A DNA stretch of 44,606 nucleotides, taken from the IMG/VR virus record IMGVR_UViG_2711768040_000011, positions 1 to 44,606 of that record, one strand, 5' to 3'. The stretch's first letter is position 1. The number at the start of each line of letters is the position of its first letter. Below the pieces are notes generated by a model. That model saw nothing but the letters and a program-made list of their open reading frames with translations. It searched no databases and was not told where the DNA came from. Below are positions 1,273 to 44,606 of this stretch, in pieces. Source of the stretch: a virus (lineage: Duplodnaviria > Heunggongvirae > Uroviricota > Caudoviricetes). The translations under genes and the position numbers were made by a program.

Positions 1273-1542
1273 TATCGTTGAGTATTAGCCTTGGTCAACC
1301 CGAAATTTTCTGATTTTCGTTACTGAGAGCTTAGGTATGGTGTAAGCTATTGACGTTAGTTTGCTCTCAACAAGTTACTAACTAGGGGGTCAGGCGGGCT
1401 TCGCTCTCTTGACCCCTGACTTTCCACATTGGTAGTTGTCCACTCCCTGCATCTGTTTTTACAAAGCACATAATCATTACACAAATTAAGCTTTATGATT
1501 ATAATGCTATTGTCTCTACATCTTTTGAGCCTAACAATCAAT

Positions 1543-2655
1543 ATGAAATTATCTCAAAATCAGTCTGATGCACTTGAGTCTCTCAGGGGGTTGTCAGCTA
1601 TCGCAGTGTTAATCTGTCACTTTTTTCAGGTCTTTCTGGCTAGATTTTATCCTGATTACTTTCATGCCGATTTGATCATTGCTCAGTCTAGCGTAATGAT
1701 TTTTTTTGTTATGAGTGGCTTTCTTATTGGTGTATCAGTGCAGTCAAACATCAGTCGAAACGGAAGTTTTGACCTCATTTCGTATGCCAAATCACGATTT
1801 CTTCGTATTTACCCGCCTTTATTGTTTGCCATTATATTGTGTTTCATTTTGTCTAGCTTGGCCCCAATTTTCTTTGAAAGCGGAAGCGCCTCTTTCATGA
1901 TCCCAGATGCTTTTACACGAGGTAAATCTCTGGAAATGCCAGCAAAAGAGATTTTGGCCTCACTTACTTTCATGAATGGATTCTTGCCAGTAGGTGCAAA
2001 TTTTAACTCCCCTCTGTGGAGCCTACCGTACGAGGTGTGGTACTACGTTGTCTTTGGCCTACTTGCAACTCTACGCCCTGGGCTTGTGATTCTTGGTCTT
2101 ATTTTTTTCTTTGTCATTTCAATGGCAAATGATCGCTTCATGGCTTACTCAGTAATATGGGGAGCCGGTTTCGCAATGTCATTCTTACTTTCAAGAACTG
2201 CTTATGCTAAAGCGCTATGTGTTATCGGGCTTGCTTATTTCGGTTATCAATCTTATTTAAATGCAGGAACATTCCTGGACGGAACAACCGATCTAGAAAT
2301 GTATAAAATTACATTCGGCCTCGCATTTTCCATGCTCGTTTATATAGCACTCTTCATTTATGACCTGCCTTTCAAGGTGTTAAAGAAATCATCAAAAATT
2401 TCATACACGTTATATATCACTCATTTCCCTGTTATGCTTTTCTTCATCGGAGCTTTCGAGTACACAGTTAAAAATGATGCTTCGTTATCTGCGGTCATTG
2501 GGATCTGCGCAATGGTTGTGGCCTTAATCATTTCGCATTACGCATCACAAGTTTTTGAGAACAAAAAAGTAATGGCTGCAATGTTTATGAAAAAGGCCAT
2601 GCAAGAAAAATCAAATATCAGAAGTCCGGAGCATACGTCCCTGACACAAAAATAG
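1543..2655 (+). CDS. membrane acyltransferase (acyltransferase-3/OafA family; putative O-antigen O-acetyltransferase, lysogenic conversion)
   Basis: Multi-TM protein with ESLRGLSAIAVLICH motif typical of acyltransferase-3; AT-rich; in-frame alternative start at 1495; 3' end overlaps tailspike 3' end. Confidence 0.8.
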   Translation: MKLSQNQSDALESLRGLSAIAVLICHFFQVFLARFYPDYFHADLIIAQSSVMIFFVMSGFLIGVSVQSNISRNGSFDLISYAKSRFLRIYPPLLFAIILCFILSSLAPIFFESGSASFMIPDAFTRGKSLEMPAKEILASLTFMNGFLPVGANFNSPLWSLPYEVWYYVVFGLLATLRPGLVILGLIFFFVISMANDRFMAYSVIWGAGFAMSFLLSRTAYAKALCVIGLAYFGYQSYLNAGTFLDGTTDLEMYKITFGLAFSMLVYIALFIYDLPFKVLKKSSKISYTLYITHFPVMLFFIGAFEYTVKNDASLSAVIGICAMVVALIISHYASQVFENKKVMAAMFMKKAMQEKSNIRSPEHTSLTQK

Positions 2656-4570
2656 TCGTGCCGAGAGACTGCAGGAATGCTGGTTTTACTAGAACATTCT
2701 TGAGGCTAACTGCTACCCACGTGCTATTCGAAACGTTGGCCGCCATCACGATAGTTTGTGTCGTTGATGGCGCATTCACTCCCACCGTAGCAGACGTGTC
2801 TACAAGAGTAGAACCAGCATAATATGACACTGCAGGTAACGTAGTTGTTGCTCCATGTGTCAATGTCACAAGACCAGCTGAACCAGATGCCGACACAAGG
2901 GATGAAATCCATGCTGGGGGAGTTGCGGCAGGCCTGCCAGATCTGATTTCGCCAGTATTTACGTTTACTATAATATCCAGATTGGCATATATAGTTACAC
3001 GCAAATTATAATCTGTGCTTACGTTTAATCTGTCAGCAATAGCAAACAAGCCACTGGTTAATTCTGTTCTGTTTAAATATGCGGTAAAATCAAACCAACA
3101 CGACGCATTATCTGAAATGGTAAATAATAATGAGTTACCGTCACTTGCAGGAGCAACCTTCGATATATTCGACGGGCGCATCACTCCAGTATCGTTATTT
3201 AGATTAAGAATTTGCCACGAAGAACTAGATGAGGCATATCGTGCTGCTGCAGCACAATGCTTTGCCCTTAGCCATGGCGCAACGTTGTTTCCTGTGTACT
3301 GTAACAGATCCTCAGGGGTCTTTGTTTTCACTCCCCCCTTCTCGATAGCCCACAATCCTCTCGCCGCTCCTGCACCCATGGTGTTATAGCCTTTTTGGGT
3401 ATAGTGAACTCCTTCTGTTCCTACGTTTCCGTCACGATTAAGGAATGAAGGACACCCATCAAAAGCAGTAACAGCAATATCTCGAGCATTAACAACATAT
3501 CTCTGAGCGTTCTGGATGGTTTGCCATGTGTATTCTGGTCGGTTCTTTGGGCTGCCAACTGTACAGTTTGCGAACCTTGCCAGAGGTATATCTGCAGAAA
3601 GATTATCGATGAGATTAACAAACAAAGATCGGTAAGAATCGAACGATGTCTCGTTAAGCTGATCTGTTTCACCCTGATGGAAGAGAACATATACTTTTCC
3701 GAGCGTTAACCCCTGAGTCCCCATTCTTGATATTGCATTATTAACACCTGCAACTAATAAGCCATAATAGTCAGACGCGCCAGTAGATGCCCCCTTAGAA
3801 AGTTGAGCTAACGAGGTAGCACCACGACCACAATGAACAACAACAGCACCCCTGCCACTCAGTCGATACCATTCGTTAGTAAATTCACCCCATGCATGCC
3901 CTGAAGATGCCACTCCTGACGAGCTTACAATGGCCTGAATGATCGGTTTAATAGTACCGTCTGTGAAATCATACATCAGTGATTTCGGCAGCGGGGATGG
4001 GAATCCAGACGTATCACCAGAAAGAATGGCCTCGCCAGCGCTATTGGACTGGCCGTAGGTCACGATCAGGTCATATACATCAGGGGCTTCAAGATATTTT
4101 GTACCCCTAACGTTCTGCGCAACCTGAGATGCCGGCACTCCAGCAATACTCACCGTGCTATTAACATCGGCTAGCTGCTTACGGAGAACATCGCTAACGT
4201 CAACGAGTTGCCATTTACCCTCGCCTGTTCCGCCTGATGAGCCAGGCGTTGATCCAGAAGGAACTGTCTTGGGTAATGTCGAAAGGTCATCCCATCGGTA
4301 CCATGCGCCAGAGGTAGTGTCCTGGATGATATCTCCTGGGTTATTGACTATCGCCCCACCCTGGAAGGTTCCTACGGGATTCCAGCCAAGGGCATAGATC
4401 TGTTCGAGAACCAAAGCCTTCAGACCTTCAATCGTGTAGTGCTTATTCCCGAAGCGATCGATATACCACTCAGCAAAAGAGGTAACGAATTCATCTATTT
4501 TCCCGGCGTTAAATTTCAGGTCAATTGGGGATTCGCTCGGTACAGGCCTATTGGTAGGTGTAGTAGCCAT
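2618..4570 (-). CDS. tailspike / receptor-binding protein with SGNH (SASA/DUF303-type) esterase domain
   Basis: 650-aa ORF at distal end of tail module; central GQSNSAGEA and HQGETD blocks resemble sialate O-acetylesterase family motifs; C-terminal third is AT-rich. Confidence 0.75.
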   Translation of the reverse strand: MATTPTNRPVPSESPIDLKFNAGKIDEFVTSFAEWYIDRFGNKHYTIEGLKALVLEQIYALGWNPVGTFQGGAIVNNPGDIIQDTTSGAWYRWDDLSTLPKTVPSGSTPGSSGGTGEGKWQLVDVSDVLRKQLADVNSTVSIAGVPASQVAQNVRGTKYLEAPDVYDLIVTYGQSNSAGEAILSGDTSGFPSPLPKSLMYDFTDGTIKPIIQAIVSSSGVASSGHAWGEFTNEWYRLSGRGAVVVHCGRGATSLAQLSKGASTGASDYYGLLVAGVNNAISRMGTQGLTLGKVYVLFHQGETDQLNETSFDSYRSLFVNLIDNLSADIPLARFANCTVGSPKNRPEYTWQTIQNAQRYVVNARDIAVTAFDGCPSFLNRDGNVGTEGVHYTQKGYNTMGAGAARGLWAIEKGGVKTKTPEDLLQYTGNNVAPWLRAKHCAAAARYASSSSSWQILNLNNDTGVMRPSNISKVAPASDGNSLLFTISDNASCWFDFTAYLNRTELTSGLFAIADRLNVSTDYNLRVTIYANLDIIVNVNTGEIRSGRPAATPPAWISSLVSASGSAGLVTLTHGATTTLPAVSYYAGSTLVDTSATVGVNAPSTTQTIVMAANVSNSTWVAVSLKNVLVKPAFLQSLGTTIFVSGTYAPDF

Positions 4571-40706: not shown

Positions 40707-41371
40707 AAGAGCGCGGAATGATTTTCAACGGCGAGATGGTGCGCGCCATCCTCGACGGCAAAAAGACGCAGACGCGGCGCATCATGAAGGTTCAGCCGTC
40801 TGATGGTTTCCACCCAACGCATAACGGTTACGATCTGGATTTAAACGCACACTGGTACACACCTGGCGTGATCGATAAAAACGGATACCTGCAACCTGCA
40901 AAGAAAGATGCATTTGGCGTTGCTGATGAGAATGAAGGCTATACCTGCCCGTTCGGTGCCGTCGGCGATCGCATCTGGGTGCGCGAAACGTGGGCTGAAG
41001 CTGGTGCTGGCGCGCCGGACCTGAAACTTTATCGCGCGGATTACCCTGAGCATGTTCCAACTCATTACGAGAATGTGCCGCTGGCTGATGAAATACGCTG
41101 GACGCCTTCGATTCACATGCCGCGCTGGGCTAGTCGTCTAACTCTGGAGATTACCGGAGTGCGAGTTGAGCGATTGCAGGCCATTACCCTTGGGGATATC
41201 TGTAAGGAAATCGGCTGCGGTCTTTACGACTTCCGCCCTGCTACTTATGGCTTTCAGGTGTGGGAAGAACTGTGGAAGTCCATCTACGGCGAAGAAAACT
41301 GGCAGGCCAACCCCTGGGTCTGGGTAATCGAATTTAAGGTGGTGCCCAATGTTCAGGATAATCCAGCCTAA
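40703..41371 (+). CDS. hypothetical protein (possible ASCH/PUA-like domain)
   Basis: 222-aa ORF; N-terminal FNGEMVRAILDGKKTQTRR block resembles ASCH-type domains. Confidence 0.45.
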   Translation: MKERGMIFNGEMVRAILDGKKTQTRRIMKVQPSDGFHPTHNGYDLDLNAHWYTPGVIDKNGYLQPAKKDAFGVADENEGYTCPFGAVGDRIWVRETWAEAGAGAPDLKLYRADYPEHVPTHYENVPLADEIRWTPSIHMPRWASRLTLEITGVRVERLQAITLGDICKEIGCGLYDFRPATYGFQVWEELWKSIYGEENWQANPWVWVIEFKVVPNVQDNPA

Positions 41372-41663
41372 TACCTGGTACGCCGATCCCCACGGCGCGT
41401 CCTGCAAAATCCTCCGCGCTACCCACGAAGTAATCCACTACATCCGCAACGGTCGCACCTGCATCGCCAGCATTGGCCGCTTTCAACATGAATTCGAGCC
41501 GCTGATCAAAGCACAGGCTGAGCGGATCGCCGAAGAAATCGAAACAGCAAAGCACATCGAAAAATTAAGGAGCATGAGACGTGATCGGAATACTCAAGCC
41601 GGTACCGGAATCGCAATGGCCGGTACGATGCCACGACCCCAAGCGGAGCAACGTGTGGGCTAA
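41349..41663 (+). CDS. hypothetical protein
   Basis: 104-aa ORF overlapping neighbours; no motif recognised. Confidence 0.4.
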   Translation: MFRIIQPNTWYADPHGASCKILRATHEVIHYIRNGRTCIASIGRFQHEFEPLIKAQAERIAEEIETAKHIEKLRSMRRDRNTQAGTGIAMAGTMPRPQAEQRVG

Positions 41664-41922
41664 CTCTTACTTTCTTGTTCAGGAGTTTCAGGAAGAGAAC
41701 GGTGTTATTCGCCTGACGGTGAACACCACCAGCATTGGCAGCTCTGGCCGGTGGAAGGATGGCATCAGTTGGGATGCATTGCAGGAGATAAAGTCAGCCG
41801 TTGGCTATGGGGATCGGGATGCCGTGGAGATTTACCCGCGGGATTATGATGTGGTGAACGTGGCGAACATGCGCCACCTGTGGATTACGCCGGAGCCAAT
41901 TAGCTTCGCCTGGCGGAAGTAA
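41581..41922 (+). CDS. hypothetical protein
   Basis: 113-aa ORF (GTG start; alternative GTG at 41653 removes overlap); ends immediately before IS left end. Confidence 0.45.
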   Translation: MIGILKPVPESQWPVRCHDPKRSNVWANSYFLVQEFQEENGVIRLTVNTTSIGSSGRWKDGISWDALQEIKSAVGYGDRDAVEIYPRDYDVVNVANMRHLWITPEPISFAWRK

Positions 41923-42012
41923 ACAGCATCAGCGCATCGCCGTGTGGCGGGTGACATCCCGCCAAATAACGACGATCAACTGAACATCAACACATTATAT
42001 GTACATACGACC

Positions 42013-43104
42013 ATGAACATTCAGATCAAAACACTATCTGTCCGAATTAAAGACAAGCACGCAGCCGTTTTGCGGCAGATGGCCTTTGAGGTCAATCAGA
42101 TCTTTAATCTGGCAAACGAGATAACCAGCGCAGCATACGGCAACGCTGGCTTTTTTGGCGCGCAAAAACCGCAATGGCTATCGGCGTTTGATGTTCAGAA
42201 ACCGCTCCTTAAAGAGCGAAAAGAGCGCGGGTATACCATCCCCAGCCATACCGTACAGGAAATCGCAGCAATTCACGGCAAGGCACGGAAGCAATTTAAA
42301 CGCTCTCGCTTACGCTGGCGAGTCAGTGGGGGATCTCGCCGTTCGTTGGGTTGGGTGCCGTTTAAAATAGGCAGCGCTGTCTGGAAAAATGGCGCGGTGC
42401 GGTTCGCTGGCAGGATTTTTAATGTCTGGGATAGCTACGGCTTGGGAGGATTTAAATTCCGTGCTGGAAGCTTTTCAGAAGACAGCCGTGGACGCTGGTA
42501 CTTCAATGTTTGCGTAGAGGTCGAAACTGTCCCATCAACGGCCACTTCCGCCGTGGGTATCGATTTAGGGCTGAAAGACTACGCCACCCCGTCAGAAGGT
42601 GATCCGCTGATTGCCGGTAGATTCTATCGAGATCTGGAGCCTGCATTAGGAAAGGCACAGCGTGCAAACAAAAAAGCCCGTGTACGCGCCATACACGCCA
42701 AAATTAAGAACCGCCGCAAAGATGCCCTGCACAAGTACAGCACGGCGCTGGTTAACAGCCATGCGGCAATATTCGTAGGCGACGCGAGCAGTAAGAAACT
42801 GGTTAAAACCAAAATGGCAAAAAGCATTTTGGACGCTGGCTGGTTCATGCTCAAAACACAACTGGAATATAAAGCGATTGCGCGGTCAGTGGTGTTTGAA
42901 GTGGTCAACGAAAGTTATTCCACCCAAGCTTGTTCGTGTTGCGGGGCTATCTCCGCCAACAGTCCGAAAGGTAGAGCAGGCCTGCGAATAAGAGAATGGA
43001 CTTGTTGTGAGTGCGGAACCACTCATGACCGCGACGTGAACGCCGCAAAGAACATTCTCGCGGCGGGGCATCGCCGTCTAGCTGTAGGAATCCCCTTCCT
43101 TTAG
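42013..43104 (+). CDS. tnpB: TnpB (RNA-guided endonuclease / IS605 OrfB family transposase accessory protein)
   Basis: RuvC-like blocks (SAVGIDLGLKDYAT; DRDVNAAKNIL) and C-terminal zinc finger CSCCG...CCECG; ATG 42013. Confidence 0.85.
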   Translation: MNIQIKTLSVRIKDKHAAVLRQMAFEVNQIFNLANEITSAAYGNAGFFGAQKPQWLSAFDVQKPLLKERKERGYTIPSHTVQEIAAIHGKARKQFKRSRLRWRVSGGSRRSLGWVPFKIGSAVWKNGAVRFAGRIFNVWDSYGLGGFKFRAGSFSEDSRGRWYFNVCVEVETVPSTATSAVGIDLGLKDYATPSEGDPLIAGRFYRDLEPALGKAQRANKKARVRAIHAKIKNRRKDALHKYSTALVNSHAAIFVGDASSKKLVKTKMAKSILDAGWFMLKTQLEYKAIARSVVFEVVNESYSTQACSCCGAISANSPKGRAGLRIREWTCCECGTTHDRDVNAAKNILAAGHRRLAVGIPFL

Positions 43105-43187
43105 GACGGGGAGGATGTCAAGCAACTGATAGCCAGTTATGAGCTGGCTATTGGGTGCGAAAGCACTGCTCAGTTATCCCCCATTTT

Positions 43188-43215
43188 GCCCGGCCCCGCG
43201 CCGGGCGCTCTTTTT
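43188..43215 (+). terminator. hairpin plus T-run at right end of IS element (terminator and/or IS right-end structure)
   Basis: gcccggc-cccgc-gccgggc followed by gctcTTTTT. Confidence 0.45.
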
Positions 43216-43228
43216 CTGGAGATCACAG

Positions 43229-43444
43229 ATGAATGACAGCATCCTGGTTACAAGCGAAATCCTTGCGCGCTACAAAATATCGCGCAGCACGCTCTATTTC
43301 TGGAGCACTCCCGCACGTATGCCATCCAGCTTTTCATGCCCATTCCCGAAACCAACCATCCCCGGAAATCCGAAGCGCTGGCGTGAGTCAGAAATCAAGT
43401 CATGGGAAGACAAGGTCAACTTTGCTAAAGGGGATACCCAATAA
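43229..43444 (+). CDS. alpA: AlpA-family phage regulatory protein / excisionase
   Basis: 71-aa ORF MNDSILVTSEILARYKISRSTLYFW (AlpA-type HTH), GGAGA SD, adjacent to integrase. Confidence 0.7.
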   Translation: MNDSILVTSEILARYKISRSTLYFWSTPARMPSSFSCPFPKPTIPGNPKRWRESEIKSWEDKVNFAKGDTQ

Positions 43445-44606
43445 TCTCCTGCAAATGCTTCTGCCAGATATCCAGCCATTCATGCTGATCGTCCATATAG
43501 TCATGAAGGTTGTATCTGGCCATAACCCCGCCCATCTGATGTCCGAGCAACTTTTCTATAACGTGTGGTGGAGCGCCAAGCTCGGACAGGCGCGTGGCCA
43601 CCGTTCTCCGCAAATCATGTAATGACCACTCCTTCATTCCGTTCTTACGCACTACCTGCATTGAGTACGTCGAGACAAGCGTCTGCCCAGGTGGGACATC
43701 TTCTTTATCCCGGAACTGTGCTGGAGTCAGAACGTGCTTAGTGATTGATCCGCGTTGATGCTCTTGCAGAAGCCTGACCGCAGTATCCGGCAACGCACGA
43801 CGAATAGTTTTACCGGTCTTATAATCCTCTGCCGGCACAGTCCAGGACCTTTCTTTGAAATCGAACCACTCCCATCTCGACTTTCTTATTTCTGCGGCGC
43901 GGCATCCGGTTAGAATCATGAACCTGATTACCAGTTGTTGAGAGGGAGGCAGAGAGAAAAGAGTATCCCACACCTGCTTTATCTCACTATCTGAAAGCCG
44001 CCTCTCCTTCATCTTCGCTGCTATACCGACATCCGATTTTCGTAACGACTCCAGTGGATTGGTTTTGATTACTCCCCTGTTGTGGCAGAACCGGAAAGCA
44101 CGCTTGGTCAGAGACAGCATCTCACCTGATATGACACTCCTCCCCATTGCATCGAAAACCTCAAGCCAGTTCGCCTTCACTGTCTGGTCCACAATAGCCT
44201 TCCCTAGCCGCGGGCTAATGTGCTTTTTGAAGCTTTTACCGTTCGCATCAATTTTAATGAGCCCCTCCGGGATACAGTAATGCTTCACCCAGTACTCATA
44301 GGCCTCATCGACTGTCAGCGCTTCTATTCTTTCAGCCTTCTCCACCAGCACTTTCTGCCGGGGATCATACCCCTCGCTCAACCACGCTCTGAACTGCTGT
44401 CTTCTGTCTCTCGCCTGAGAGAGTGAAATAGTTGGATAGTCACCAATGCTTAACTGCACAGGCTTGCCCAGCCAGCGATACCGATAGAAGAATGTGATAG
44501 AACCGGTTATGCTTAGACGCACATTCAGTCCGTTTGAATCAGAGAGAACCTCAACCTTCTCCCTGCGCTTTCCGAGCGACTTTCGTAACTTAGTATCTGT
44601 GAGCAC
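43425..44606 (-). CDS. int: tyrosine integrase (P4-like), N-terminus runs off window end
   Basis: HxxR block (HDLRRTVAT), LLGH and catalytic Tyr region (ARYNLHDY); first codon at the window edge. Confidence 0.9.
   Translation of the reverse strand: MLTDTKLRKSLGKRREKVEVLSDSNGLNVRLSITGSITFFYRYRWLGKPVQLSIGDYPTISLSQARDRRQQFRAWLSEGYDPRQKVLVEKAERIEALTVDEAYEYWVKHYCIPEGLIKIDANGKSFKKHISPRLGKAIVDQTVKANWLEVFDAMGRSVISGEMLSLTKRAFRFCHNRGVIKTNPLESLRKSDVGIAAKMKERRLSDSEIKQVWDTLFSLPPSQQLVIRFMILTGCRAAEIRKSRWEWFDFKERSWTVPAEDYKTGKTIRRALPDTAVRLLQEHQRGSITKHVLTPAQFRDKEDVPPGQTLVSTYSMQVVRKNGMKEWSLHDLRRTVATRLSELGAPPHVIEKLLGHQMGGVMARYNLHDYMDDQHEWLDIWQKHLQEIIGYPL

What the first reader, a model, noticed from the sequence alone, without database searches (positions are those of the whole stretch)
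41925..43225. tnpB-only IS200/IS605-type element inserted between early genes and alpA/int; likely encodes an omega-RNA
A 364-aa TnpB (RuvC-like motifs plus CxxC...CxxC zinc finger) is flanked by a hairpin near its 5' side and a hairpin plus T-run at its 3' side, with no TnpA. TnpB proteins are RNA-guided nucleases whose guide RNA derives from the 3' end of the gene and the element's right end (about 42900-43225 here). The insertion abuts the alpA promoter region and could affect excision control.
Basis: partly seen in the sequence, partly recalled or inferred. Interest (0 to 1): 0.5.

Follow-up and report, generated by a model that had tools for sequence, protein, structure and literature searches.

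The report
Stranded TnpB guide-RNA cassette in prophage
This E. coli prophage carries the tnpB gene and guide-RNA half of an IS605-type transposon that has lost its transposase and its left end, so it can no longer jump. Its built-in guide matches a linker sequence shared by many related phages.

Summary
A 363-aa TnpB (42013-43104, +) is present. It scores above the curated cut-offs of Pfam and NCBIfam TnpB models. Its 3' end carries a conserved structured RNA. In 42 relatives 98% of predicted pairs form, and 14 pairs show compensatory changes. A covariance model built without the window hits it once, at 42972-43121 (E 1.7e-53).

The transposon's right end is at 43121 (...GGAGGATGTCAA|), not about 43225. 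The hairpin plus T-run at 43187-43216 belongs to a roughly 95-nt phage linker found in more than 120 viral contigs. The predicted guide is 43122-43141.

The element is not a complete IS. It lacks the left-end hairpin, the guide tetranucleotide and the target-adjacent motif (TAM). The 5' hairpin (41946-41963) is only an internal relic. No cognate tnpA lies in the window, and none was found in 5,426 E. coli genomes.

Every copy shares the same junctions, which points to one ancestral insertion, probably at TCAC|GCAACTG. Related prophages keep that site empty with a TCAC.

The cassette sits as a near-identical island in phage backgrounds whose neighbouring genes differ by 4-14%. It is an ordinary kind of element. 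One modestly interesting possibility is that it still cuts "empty" relatives.

The parts
41923..41945 (+). Junction filler of unknown origin, directly after the DUF7694 stop codon. It is found only in tnpB-bearing phages. The truncation point of the left end lies somewhere in here.
   Evidence: DUF7694-bearing phages without tnpB diverge from the window right after 41922. No similarity to the left ends of relatives.
41946..41963 (+). It corresponds to the internal 'hairpin 2' of this IS family and is not the TnpA-binding left-end hairpin.
   Evidence: 14 of 16 bases are identical to GCGGGCGACAGCCCGC at the same position in the closest copy (Salmonella pRSE21, L251). There it lies downstream of a true but degenerate left end: TCAC|CAAGTCTTTTCGCGGGAAGCCCCGTC.... 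The left-end-type hairpin pattern is absent from the window.
41964..42012 (+). Leader between the relic hairpin and the tnpB start. No sigma-70-like promoter was detected.
   Evidence: One search found 0 promoter-like sites. There is loose similarity to the leaders of L008 and L251. blastn homology of all other copies begins only at 42013.
42013..43104 (+). tnpB CDS, 363 aa. Key residues: RuvC-I D184 (42562-42564); G256 at the canonical RuvC-II glutamate position (42778-42780); alternative glutamate E300 (42910-42912); RuvC-III D341 (43033-43035); zinc finger C307, C310, C331, C334.
   Evidence: The homology of all relatives starts at this ATG.
42924..43121 (+). Omega-RNA scaffold overlapping the 3' end of tnpB. 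Helices: 42929-42935/42974-42980; 42939-42944/42964-42970; 42992-42998/43053-43059; 43060-43066/43071-43077; 43078-43080/43085-43087; and the terminal hairpin. The 5' limit is approximate.
   Evidence: RNAalifold on 42 relatives gave 40 pairs, 14 with compensatory changes. 98.0% of cells pair, against 43-52% when partners are slid, and 0 of 500 shuffles reach the observed values. Covariance model R1, built from 39 relatives without the window, gives a single hit at 42972-43121, 170.7 bits, E 1.7e-53.
43088..43121 (+). Right end of the IS. It comprises the guide tetranucleotide GAAT (43088-43091), the subterminal hairpin CCCCTTCC-ttta-GGACGGGG (43092-43111, one T.C mismatch), and AGGATGTCAA ending in the cleavage tetranucleotide TCAA (43118-43121).
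   Evidence: In all relatives examined, conservation runs to ...GTCAA and the flanks diverge completely after it. Pattern hit. This is the IS608-like code, from my own knowledge of IS608.
43122..43141 (+). Predicted guide-encoding flank (GCAACTGATAGCCAGTTATG; 16-20 nt would be used). It is also the first 20 nt of the conserved phage linker.
   Evidence: Position immediately 3' of the right end. The same sequence, preceded by TCAC, is present in E. coli FLI21 and in IMG/VR loci L090, L094 and L096.
43122..43216 (+). Context, not part of the element. This is the conserved lambdoid linker at the end of the early-left operon. It has a 13-bp hairpin (43126-43154), a GNRA hairpin (43155-43166) and an intrinsic terminator (43187-43207 plus T-run).

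Best explanation
This is the tnpB plus omega-RNA half of an IS605-group insertion sequence. The family's full-length members carry a divergently transcribed Y1 tnpA. Its TnpB is of the type with a rearranged RuvC-II site.

History (inferred). The element inserted once into a lambdoid phage, 3' of a TCAC, at the first base of a conserved linker that precedes the excisionase gene (TCAC|GCAACTGATAGCC...). It later lost tnpA. It also lost the left end together with the target-adjacent motif (TAM) and a small neighbouring phage gene.

Consequences. What remains cannot be moved by a TnpA. It is inherited with the phage and passed between phages by homologous recombination in its flanks.

Likely mechanism (inferred). 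The cassette lies on the same strand as the early-left (gam-bet-exo) operon, and no promoter of its own was detected. It is therefore most likely transcribed only when that operon is on. TnpB would then trim its own mRNA into an omega-RNA: scaffold about 42924-43121, guide from 43122. The transcript would end at the linker's terminator. The resulting complex would recognise TCAC followed by GCAACTGATAGCCAGT, which is the uninterrupted ('empty') version of its own site in related phages. Its own copy is protected because TCAA replaces the TAM.

Shown here: gene, RNA structure, right boundary, absence of a left end and of tnpA, single origin, and existence of empty target sites. Inferred: transcription, nuclease activity, the TAM, and the order of the deletion events.
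For: - TnpB identity and residues.
- The family is a real mobile IS. It is multi-copy in Thiofilum flexile and a Psychromonas MAG, and full-length copies carry tnpA.
- Right end at 43121.
- Omega-RNA covariation and covariance-model hit.
- Left-end anatomy of relatives, with the rule GAAG-TCAC, AAAG-TTAC, AAAA-TTAT, and GAAT-TCAA at the right end.
- The window lacks a left end.
- No cognate tnpA in the window or in 5,426 E. coli genomes.
- All copies at or near 100% identity share the same two junctions.
- The closest relatives use TCAC: L251, L004, L005, L008, L009, L011, L252.
- Uninterrupted sites with TCAC exist: L096, which also carries DUF7694 upstream, and E. coli FLI21.
- No promoter-like site; terminator at 43187-43216.
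[quoted passage not shown] Description of the rearranged clade: PMC10691335.
Against: - No exact empty allele of this phage and no copy with an intact left end at this site was found, so the insertion-then-deletion history is inferred.
- 100 of 120 linker-bearing viral contigs have TGAC rather than TCAC 5' of the target. The ancestral TAM could therefore have been TGAC, or most relatives may not be cleavable.
- Substitutions within tnpB among prophage copies are few (8 sites across five diverged copies; of the 6 classified, 4 are non-synonymous and 2 synonymous). They give no sign of purifying selection.
- The terminal hairpin has one mismatch.
- One copy (strain A14) is 5'-truncated.
- No expression or activity data exist.
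Confidence: 0.6

Rival explanations
1. The cassette is kept, or drives itself, as an RNA-guided homing or exclusion nuclease of the phage. During lytic growth it would cut co-resident or co-infecting relatives that carry the uninterrupted linker. Repair from the tnpB-bearing genome, helped by the phage's own Red functions encoded just upstream, would copy tnpB and the adjacent DUF7694 gene into them. Uncut or unrepaired rivals would be lost.
For: - The guide equals a sequence conserved in more than 120 viral contigs.
- TCAC-flanked perfect targets exist in nature.
- The DUF7694-tnpB-target block (about 41551-43170) is 99.8-100% identical in backgrounds whose flanks differ: DUF4222 3.9%, alpA 13.4%, int 13.6%. 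The left and right crossover points vary. This is the 'island without discrete boundaries' expected of homing with co-conversion (review PMC13565253).
- gam, bet and exo lie in the same operon.
- The ORF and all catalytic residues are intact.
Against: - The same pattern arises from ordinary lambdoid mosaic exchange, because the linker's first 50 nt or so are conserved in all these phages anyway.
- Only 3 of 120 sampled targets carry TCAC.
- There is no purifying-selection signal.
- The cassette is rare: about 10 of 5,426 E. coli genomes carry it at 97.8% identity or more.
- One copy is truncated.
Confidence: 0.2
2. It is an inert relic. The gene is still open only because the insertion is recent. 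No functional ribonucleoprotein is made, and it is a neutral passenger on its way to decay.
For: - Loss of the left end and of tnpA.
- No own promoter or obvious ribosome-binding site.
- Non-synonymous changes are at least as frequent as synonymous ones among copies.
- A mismatch in the terminal hairpin and a right-end point mutation in L209.
- A truncated copy in strain A14.
- Other decayed fragments of the family are in E. coli plasmids, annotated 'ykiE'. The left-end hairpin of the closest copy, L251, is also degenerate.
Against: The ORF is intact with every catalytic and zinc-binding residue in all but one copy. The RNA matches the family model over its full length. Read-through from the early operon is plausible, because no terminator lies between DUF7694 and tnpB.
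Confidence: 0.15
3. One reading: a complete, mobilisable tnpB-only (IS1341-type) element spanning 41925-43225, with a hairpin at each end.
For: Hairpins do exist near both ends of that interval. tnpB-only members with both ends exist in this family, for example in Thiofilum and Psychromonas.
Against: - The right end is at 43121.
- The 3' hairpin belongs to the phage linker, which is present in tnpB-less phages.
- The 5' hairpin is not a left-end hairpin.
- There is no cognate TnpA.
- There is never more than one copy per genome, and always at the same junctions.
Confidence: 0.03
4. A nuclease-dead, TldR-like RNA-guided repressor domesticated by the phage.
For: It is phage-borne, immobile and single-copy, as TldR genes are (PMC10705468, listed). 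The canonical RuvC-II glutamate is missing.
Against: - G256 is invariant across the whole family, including multi-copy mobile members, and is paired with an invariant E300. This is the rearranged but active type (PMC10691335; PMC10278001).
- D184, D341 and the zinc finger are intact and there is no C-terminal truncation.
- The guide matches the element's own flank, not a host promoter.
Confidence: 0.02

Closest known systems
IS608 / IS605-group insertion sequences (IS200/IS605 family, Y1 TnpA plus TnpB)
   Same: - The right end has a subterminal hairpin preceded by GAAT and ends in TCAA.
- Relatives have a left end with the same hairpin, preceded by [G/A]AA[G/A], and insert 3' of T[C/T]A[C/T]. 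These are the same tetranucleotides as IS608 (TTAC/AAAG, TCAA/GAAT; my own knowledge of IS608).
- Full-length relatives carry a Y1 tnpA.
   Different: This copy has no tnpA, no left-end hairpin, no left guide tetranucleotide and no TAM. It is single-copy and fixed in one phage context.
TnpB-omega-RNA (OMEGA) nucleases such as ISDra2 TnpB and AmaTnpB
   Same: - Sequence homology to ISDra2 TnpB (PDB 8bf8/8exa, E 1.2e-23).
- The omega-RNA overlaps the 3' end of the gene and ends at the transposon end, with the guide read from the flank.
- The inferred TAM, TCAC, equals that of AmaTnpB (PMC10278001).
   Different: The canonical RuvC-II glutamate is replaced by glycine, with an alternative invariant glutamate 44 residues downstream. 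This matches the RuvC-II-rearranged clades described in PMC10691335. Formal assignment to clade RIIr-5 was not tested.
Free-standing homing endonuclease genes of phages (T4 seg/mob; 'intronless homing'), and 'transposon non-restorative homing' as defined in PMC13565253
   Same: - A nuclease gene sits between conserved phage sequences.
- Its predicted target is the allele that lacks it.
- It forms a near-identical island with ragged boundaries in divergent backgrounds.
   Different: Target recognition would be RNA-guided. No cleavage or biased inheritance has been shown here.
TldR (prophage-encoded, nuclease-dead TnpB-like repressors)
   Same: A prophage-borne, immobilised TnpB homologue with a fixed guide.
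   Different: The catalytic residues and C-terminus are intact, there is no flagellin or transporter partner gene, and the guide matches phage DNA.

Membership tests
TnpB (OMEGA RNA-guided endonuclease) | Scores above the curated thresholds of the family models | tested here: met
   PF07282 77.7 bits (cut-off 26.3); PF01385 48.8 bits (cut-off 30.5); NF040570 guided_TnpB 229.8 bits (cut-off 100). ISDra2 TnpB structures match at E 1.2e-23.
TnpB (OMEGA RNA-guided endonuclease) | RuvC catalytic triad D-E-D | tested here: inconclusive
   D184 and D341 are present and invariant. The canonical glutamate position is G256, invariant in 100 relatives. E300 is invariant and fits the published 'alternative glutamate' rearrangement. 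The geometry was not checked on a structure.
TnpB (OMEGA RNA-guided endonuclease) | C4 zinc finger between RuvC-II and RuvC-III | tested here: met
   C307, C310 and C334 are invariant and C331 is present in 99 of 100 relatives.
TnpB (OMEGA RNA-guided endonuclease) | Structured omega-RNA overlapping the 3' end of the gene and ending at the transposon's right end | tested here: met
   Covariation: 98% of cells paired, 14 compensatory pairs, both controls passed. Independent covariance-model hit at 42972-43121, E 1.7e-53.
TnpB (OMEGA RNA-guided endonuclease) | RNA-guided, TAM-dependent DNA cleavage | not testable with these tools
   Needs a TAM-library or plasmid-interference assay.
IS200/IS605-family insertion sequence (mobile unit, including tnpB-only IS1341 type) | Right end: subterminal hairpin, guide tetranucleotide, cleavage tetranucleotide | tested here: met
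   GAAT, then the hairpin at 43092-43111, then ...TCAA at 43118-43121. Shared by all relatives.
IS200/IS605-family insertion sequence (mobile unit, including tnpB-only IS1341 type) | Left end: subterminal hairpin like that of the right end, guide tetranucleotide, and TAM at the boundary | tested here: not met
   The pattern CCCCNNCCTTTAGGNNGGGG (up to 3 mismatches) hits only the right end. The upstream 90 nt align to no left end. Only the internal hairpin 2 is retained.
IS200/IS605-family insertion sequence (mobile unit, including tnpB-only IS1341 type) | A Y1 TnpA available in cis or in trans | tested here: not met
   tblastn of a cognate TnpA against the window gave nothing better than E 0.54. 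Across 5,426 E. coli genomes there was only a partial match at 77% identity to the tnpA of ISEc41.
IS200/IS605-family insertion sequence (mobile unit, including tnpB-only IS1341 type) | Copies at different sites (evidence of transposition) | tested here: not met
   At most one cassette copy in any E. coli genome that has it. The intact copies at 97.8% identity or more share both junctions; strain A14 is 5'-truncated and keeps only the right one.
TldR (nuclease-dead TnpB-like repressor) | Loss of RuvC residues and/or C-terminal truncation; partner gene (fliC-like or oppF) | tested here: not met
   The protein is full length, D184, E300 and D341 are intact, and the neighbours are DUF7694 and alpA.
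Homing nuclease gene ('non-restorative homing') | The allele lacking the gene carries a cleavable target | tested here: inconclusive
   A perfect target of at least 45 nt preceded by TCAC is present in E. coli FLI21; a perfect target of at least 40 nt preceded by TCAC is present in L096, L090 and L094. However, 100 of 120 sampled alleles have TGAC, and the TAM of this protein is inferred from relatives only.
Homing nuclease gene ('non-restorative homing') | Biased inheritance or co-conversion after cleavage | not testable with these tools
   Only an indirect footprint is available: a near-identical island in flanks that differ by 4-14%.

The most novel reading that the evidence does not exclude
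A transposon-derived TnpB that has lost all transposition machinery may survive in temperate phages as an RNA-guided homing or exclusion nuclease. Its hard-wired guide targets the conserved linker at the end of the early-left operon of rival lambdoid phages. The phage's own Red recombination genes would then copy the DUF7694-tnpB island into the cut genome. This would be a natural phage example of TnpA-independent 'non-restorative homing'.
Probability: 0.2. Interest if true: 0.65.

Novelty: new member of a known kind. Interest (0 to 1): 0.35.

Why it matters
As it stands, this is a correctly annotated TnpB gene whose anatomy has now been worked out. It gives exact coordinates for the right end, the guide and the missing left end. 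It also shows that the nearby terminator and the region upstream of alpA belong to the phage and were not disturbed.

Its wider value is as a clean natural test case. The cassette has no transposase or left end and a fixed guide, and natural TAM-bearing targets exist in sister prophages. It is a near-identical island in divergent backgrounds. Together these make it possible to ask by experiment whether TnpB alone can drive its own spread between phages.

It is also a documented member of the poorly studied RuvC-II-rearranged TnpB type from a genetically tractable host.

Tried and rejected
- Exact empty site. A query joining the two flanks, searched against E. coli genomes, found no DUF7694-linker joint. 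Every E. coli genome with this DUF7694 allele has tnpB. Relatives either have another gene in between or a different upstream gene.
- Copy with an intact left end at this site. Exact search for the right-end junction in metagenome contigs gave three more copies with the same junctions or cut by the contig end. It also gave one chance 26-nt match inside an unrelated ORF (L260).
- TGAC in the loop of the 5' hairpin (41952-41955) as the TAM and left boundary. Rejected, because the hairpin is homologous to an internal hairpin of L251 and L252, and nothing downstream resembles a left end.
- D257 as a substitute for the RuvC-II glutamate. Rejected, because the position is N in 55 and D in 44 of 100 relatives.
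- Rfam. There is no family at gathering score. There are only two weak hits: HgcC (E 0.27), and an archaeal snoRNA match (E 0.097) that I take to be chance.
- Selection test on tnpB among prophage copies. There are too few substitutions: 8 sites across five diverged copies, 6 of them classified.
- Multiple alignment of the 90-nt leader to the left-end regions of relatives. Uninformative beyond hairpin 2 and the last 35 nt or so.
- Not done: structure prediction (the tools do not return coordinates, so catalytic geometry could not be read) and large protein-database searches (not needed).
Full report
**What is there.** The window is the right arm of an E. coli lambdoid prophage integrated next to yciA/tonB. 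The queried region (41800-43450) is 100% identical to strain 53, NZ_CP048359. On the + strand the early-left operon (gam, bet, exo, TraR-like, DUF4222, DUF7694) is followed by one ORF. This ORF runs 42013-43104 from its ATG (363 aa); PGAP starts it at the GTG at 41944. It scores above the curated cut-offs of Pfam OrfB_IS605 and Cas12f1-like_TNB and of NCBIfam guided_TnpB (229.8 bits against 100). It aligns to ISDra2 TnpB structures at E 1.2e-23.

**Catalytic site.** In the alignment to ISDra2 and to an AI-designed TnpB, the canonical RuvC-II glutamate position is a glycine (G256 in ...FVGDASS...). I aligned 100 distinct relatives.
- G256 is invariant.
- The neighbouring residue 257 is N in 55 sequences and D in 44, so it is not catalytic.
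- D184 (RuvC-I), D341 (RuvC-III) and E300 (in VNESYSTQ) are invariant. Of the four zinc-finger cysteines, C307, C310 and C334 are invariant and C331 is present in 99 of 100.

This matches the published 'RuvC-II rearranged' TnpB clades, in which glycine replaces the glutamate and an alternative glutamate is proposed to compensate (PMC10691335). One member of such a clade was active in a TAM screen (PMC10278001). The protein therefore looks nuclease-competent and not TldR-like. I did not formally place it in the published tree.

**Right boundary.** Three independent comparisons put the right end at 43121.
- Homologues elsewhere stop matching at 43121. These include an E. coli plasmid at 84% identity, a Salmonella plasmid at 87%, Klebsiella plasmids at 83%, Salmonella phage LPSTLL, and the 'ykiE' fragments.
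- tnpB-less prophages at the same attachment site begin to match at 43122-43125.
- In the 22 relatives printed from the genome-contig loci, conservation runs to ...GGAAT[CCCCnnCCTTTAGGnnGGGG]AGGATGTCAA and the flanks are unrelated beyond it. The viral copies inspected show the same end, with small changes in the tail.

**Omega-RNA.** I aligned the last 280 nt before TCAA from 42 relatives that are under 93% identical to one another. RNAalifold predicts 40 pairs, 14 of them with compensatory changes. In the pair count, 98.0% of cells form standard pairs, against 43-52% when partners are slid by 1-3 columns. There are 117 cells with double changes against 7-33 when slid, and 0 of 500 shuffles reach any observed measure. 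The strongest helices map to:
- 43060-43066/43071-43077;
- 43078-43080/43085-43087;
- the terminal hairpin at 43092-43111;
- a long-range helix at 42992-42998/43053-43059.

A covariance model built from 39 relatives without the window finds one hit in the whole window. It lies at 42972-43121 on the + strand, scores 170.7 bits (E 1.7e-53), covers the model's full length and ends exactly at 43121. Rfam has no family at threshold. The only hit at this site is a weak match of HgcC over the terminal hairpin (19 bits, E 0.27). From my own recollection, HgcC is an archaeal RNA from the 3' end of IS1341-type tnpB genes. The guide would be read from 43122 onward (GCAACTGATAGCCAGTTATG).

**The 3' hairpin plus T-run is phage DNA, not transposon.** The stretch 43122-43216 is a conserved non-coding linker. 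The linker has three parts:
- an invariant 13-bp hairpin;
- a GNRA hairpin;
- an intrinsic terminator whose stem is exchanged between phages while staying paired.

Different genes lie upstream and different excisionase-type genes lie downstream. The terminator is the site at 43187-43216. It is intact here, so the insertion lies upstream of the linker and does not touch alpA's immediate upstream region. No sigma-70-like promoter was found between 41500 and 43500.

**No left end.** In multi-copy genomes the left boundary is sharp:
- TTAC|CGAACCAGCCGTAAAG[CCCC...GGGG] in Thiofilum;
- TTTAA|CGAACC... in Psychromonas.

Across relatives, the tetranucleotide just 5' of the left hairpin predicts the flanking motif: GAAG with TCAC, AAAG with TTAC, AAAA with TTAT. 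At the right end, GAAT goes with TCAA. This is the IS608 logic, from my own knowledge. Many relatives, including Klebsiella plasmids, carry a divergent Y1 tnpA between the left end and tnpB.

In the window, the hairpin pattern occurs only at the right end. blastn homology to every other copy starts at the ATG.

The left hairpin, its guide tetranucleotide and the TAM are therefore missing. The breakpoint lies between 41923 and 41945. No cognate tnpA is in the window. In 5,426 complete E. coli genomes the only match was a partial one, at 77% identity, to the tnpA of ISEc41. Failing these defining features, the cassette should not be filed as a mobile IS, although it clearly derives from one.

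**History (inferred).** The intact copies at or near 100% identity share both junctions, so they descend from one event; the 5'-truncated copy in strain A14 keeps the right junction only. They come from about ten E. coli genomes, six IMG/VR contigs and three metagenome contigs.

In 120 linker-bearing viral contigs, the four bases 5' of GCAACTG are TGAC in 100, TAAC in 7 and TCAC in 3. They are TCAA in the two tnpB-bearing ones. The closest relatives of this TnpB insert at TCAC.

Two TCAC alleles are informative. IMG/VR locus L096 has DUF7694, then one small gene, then TAA-C-TCAC|GCAACTGATAGCC. E. coli FLI21 has the same small gene and joint, with at least 45 nt identical to the window's flank.

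The simplest history is insertion at such a TCAC site. A deletion then ran from the DUF7694 stop codon into the left end. tnpA was also lost; the order of the two losses is unknown. No intact intermediate was found.

**Distribution.** The block of DUF7694, tnpB and the first part of the linker is 99.8-100% identical in phages that otherwise differ.
- In metagenome locus L257, tnpB has 2 differences in 1,092 nt. Its DUF4222 differs by 3.9%, the rest of the linker by 9.2%, alpA by 13.4% and int by 13.6%. E. coli XJ55 carries the same 2 tnpB differences, and its linker and alpA also diverge.
- Left crossovers lie before 39013, at 41346 and at 41603.
- Right crossovers lie near 43170, 43195, 43206 and 43219, or beyond the window.
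- Strain L73 carries the block in a phage with a different excisionase, integrated at dsdC.
- Strain A14 has a 5'-truncated copy.

This footprint fits recombinational spread of an island. Nuclease-driven homing with co-conversion predicts the same thing (PMC13565253), but so does ordinary lambdoid mosaicism through the conserved linker. The few substitutions in tnpB (4 of the 6 classified are non-synonymous) give no selection signal.

**Verdict.** The cassette is a stranded tnpB-omega-RNA unit, a new member of a well-known kind. Most likely it is a selfish passenger, transcribed with the early-left operon and still able to form a guide-RNA complex aimed at 'empty' TCAC alleles in sister phages. 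Whether that activity exists and contributes to the island's spread is the only part with real interest, and it is directly testable.

Noticed in passing
window 43122-43216: A conserved non-coding linker of about 95 nt lies at the end of the early-left operon. It has an invariant 13-bp hairpin, a GNRA hairpin, and an intrinsic terminator whose stem sequence is swapped between phages while pairing is kept. It is present in more than 120 IMG/VR contigs, with varied genes on both sides, and no Rfam family matches it. It looks like a mosaic joint, or possibly a 3'-UTR-derived RNA.
   Followed up: partly
L256 (E. coli FLI21) 1495-1560; L096, L090, L094: Prophages without tnpB carry TCAC immediately 5' of a perfect match to the predicted guide. 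These are natural candidate targets, or pre-insertion alleles.
   Followed up: partly
window about 41551-43170, compared with L257, L253, L209, L205, L208, L255: The DUF7694-tnpB block is a 99.8-100% identical island in phage backgrounds whose adjacent genes differ by 4-14%. Its left and right crossover points vary.
   Followed up: partly
E. coli plasmids of about 77 kb (hits H12-H18): Genes annotated 'ykiE' overlap a 360-nt fragment (77% identity) of the 3' end of a tnpB of this family. The fragment ends at the same right end, so it is a decayed tnpB/omega-RNA remnant.
   Followed up: no
L003 (E. coli ET210 plasmid) 2460-3620: An 84%-identical tnpB on a plasmid with phage-like genes also lacks a recognisable left end. 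Only a short hairpin precedes the ATG, but the right end is intact, with a different flank and so a different guide.
   Followed up: no
window 42943-43134: A sub-threshold Rfam hit to HgcC (RF00062; 19 bits, E 0.27) is centred on the right-end hairpin and the GGAGGAUGUCA tail. It suggests that this terminal omega-RNA module is conserved as far as archaeal tnpB-associated RNAs.
   Followed up: no
window 43425-43444: alpA (43229-43444, + strand) and int (43425-44606, - strand) converge, and their 3' ends overlap by 20 nt.
   Followed up: no
L254 (E. coli A14) 1418-3374: In strain A14 the tnpB copy is truncated at window position 42228 and abuts a partial anti-CBASS Acb1-family gene and head genes. 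This indicates a large rearrangement or deletion in that prophage.
   Followed up: no
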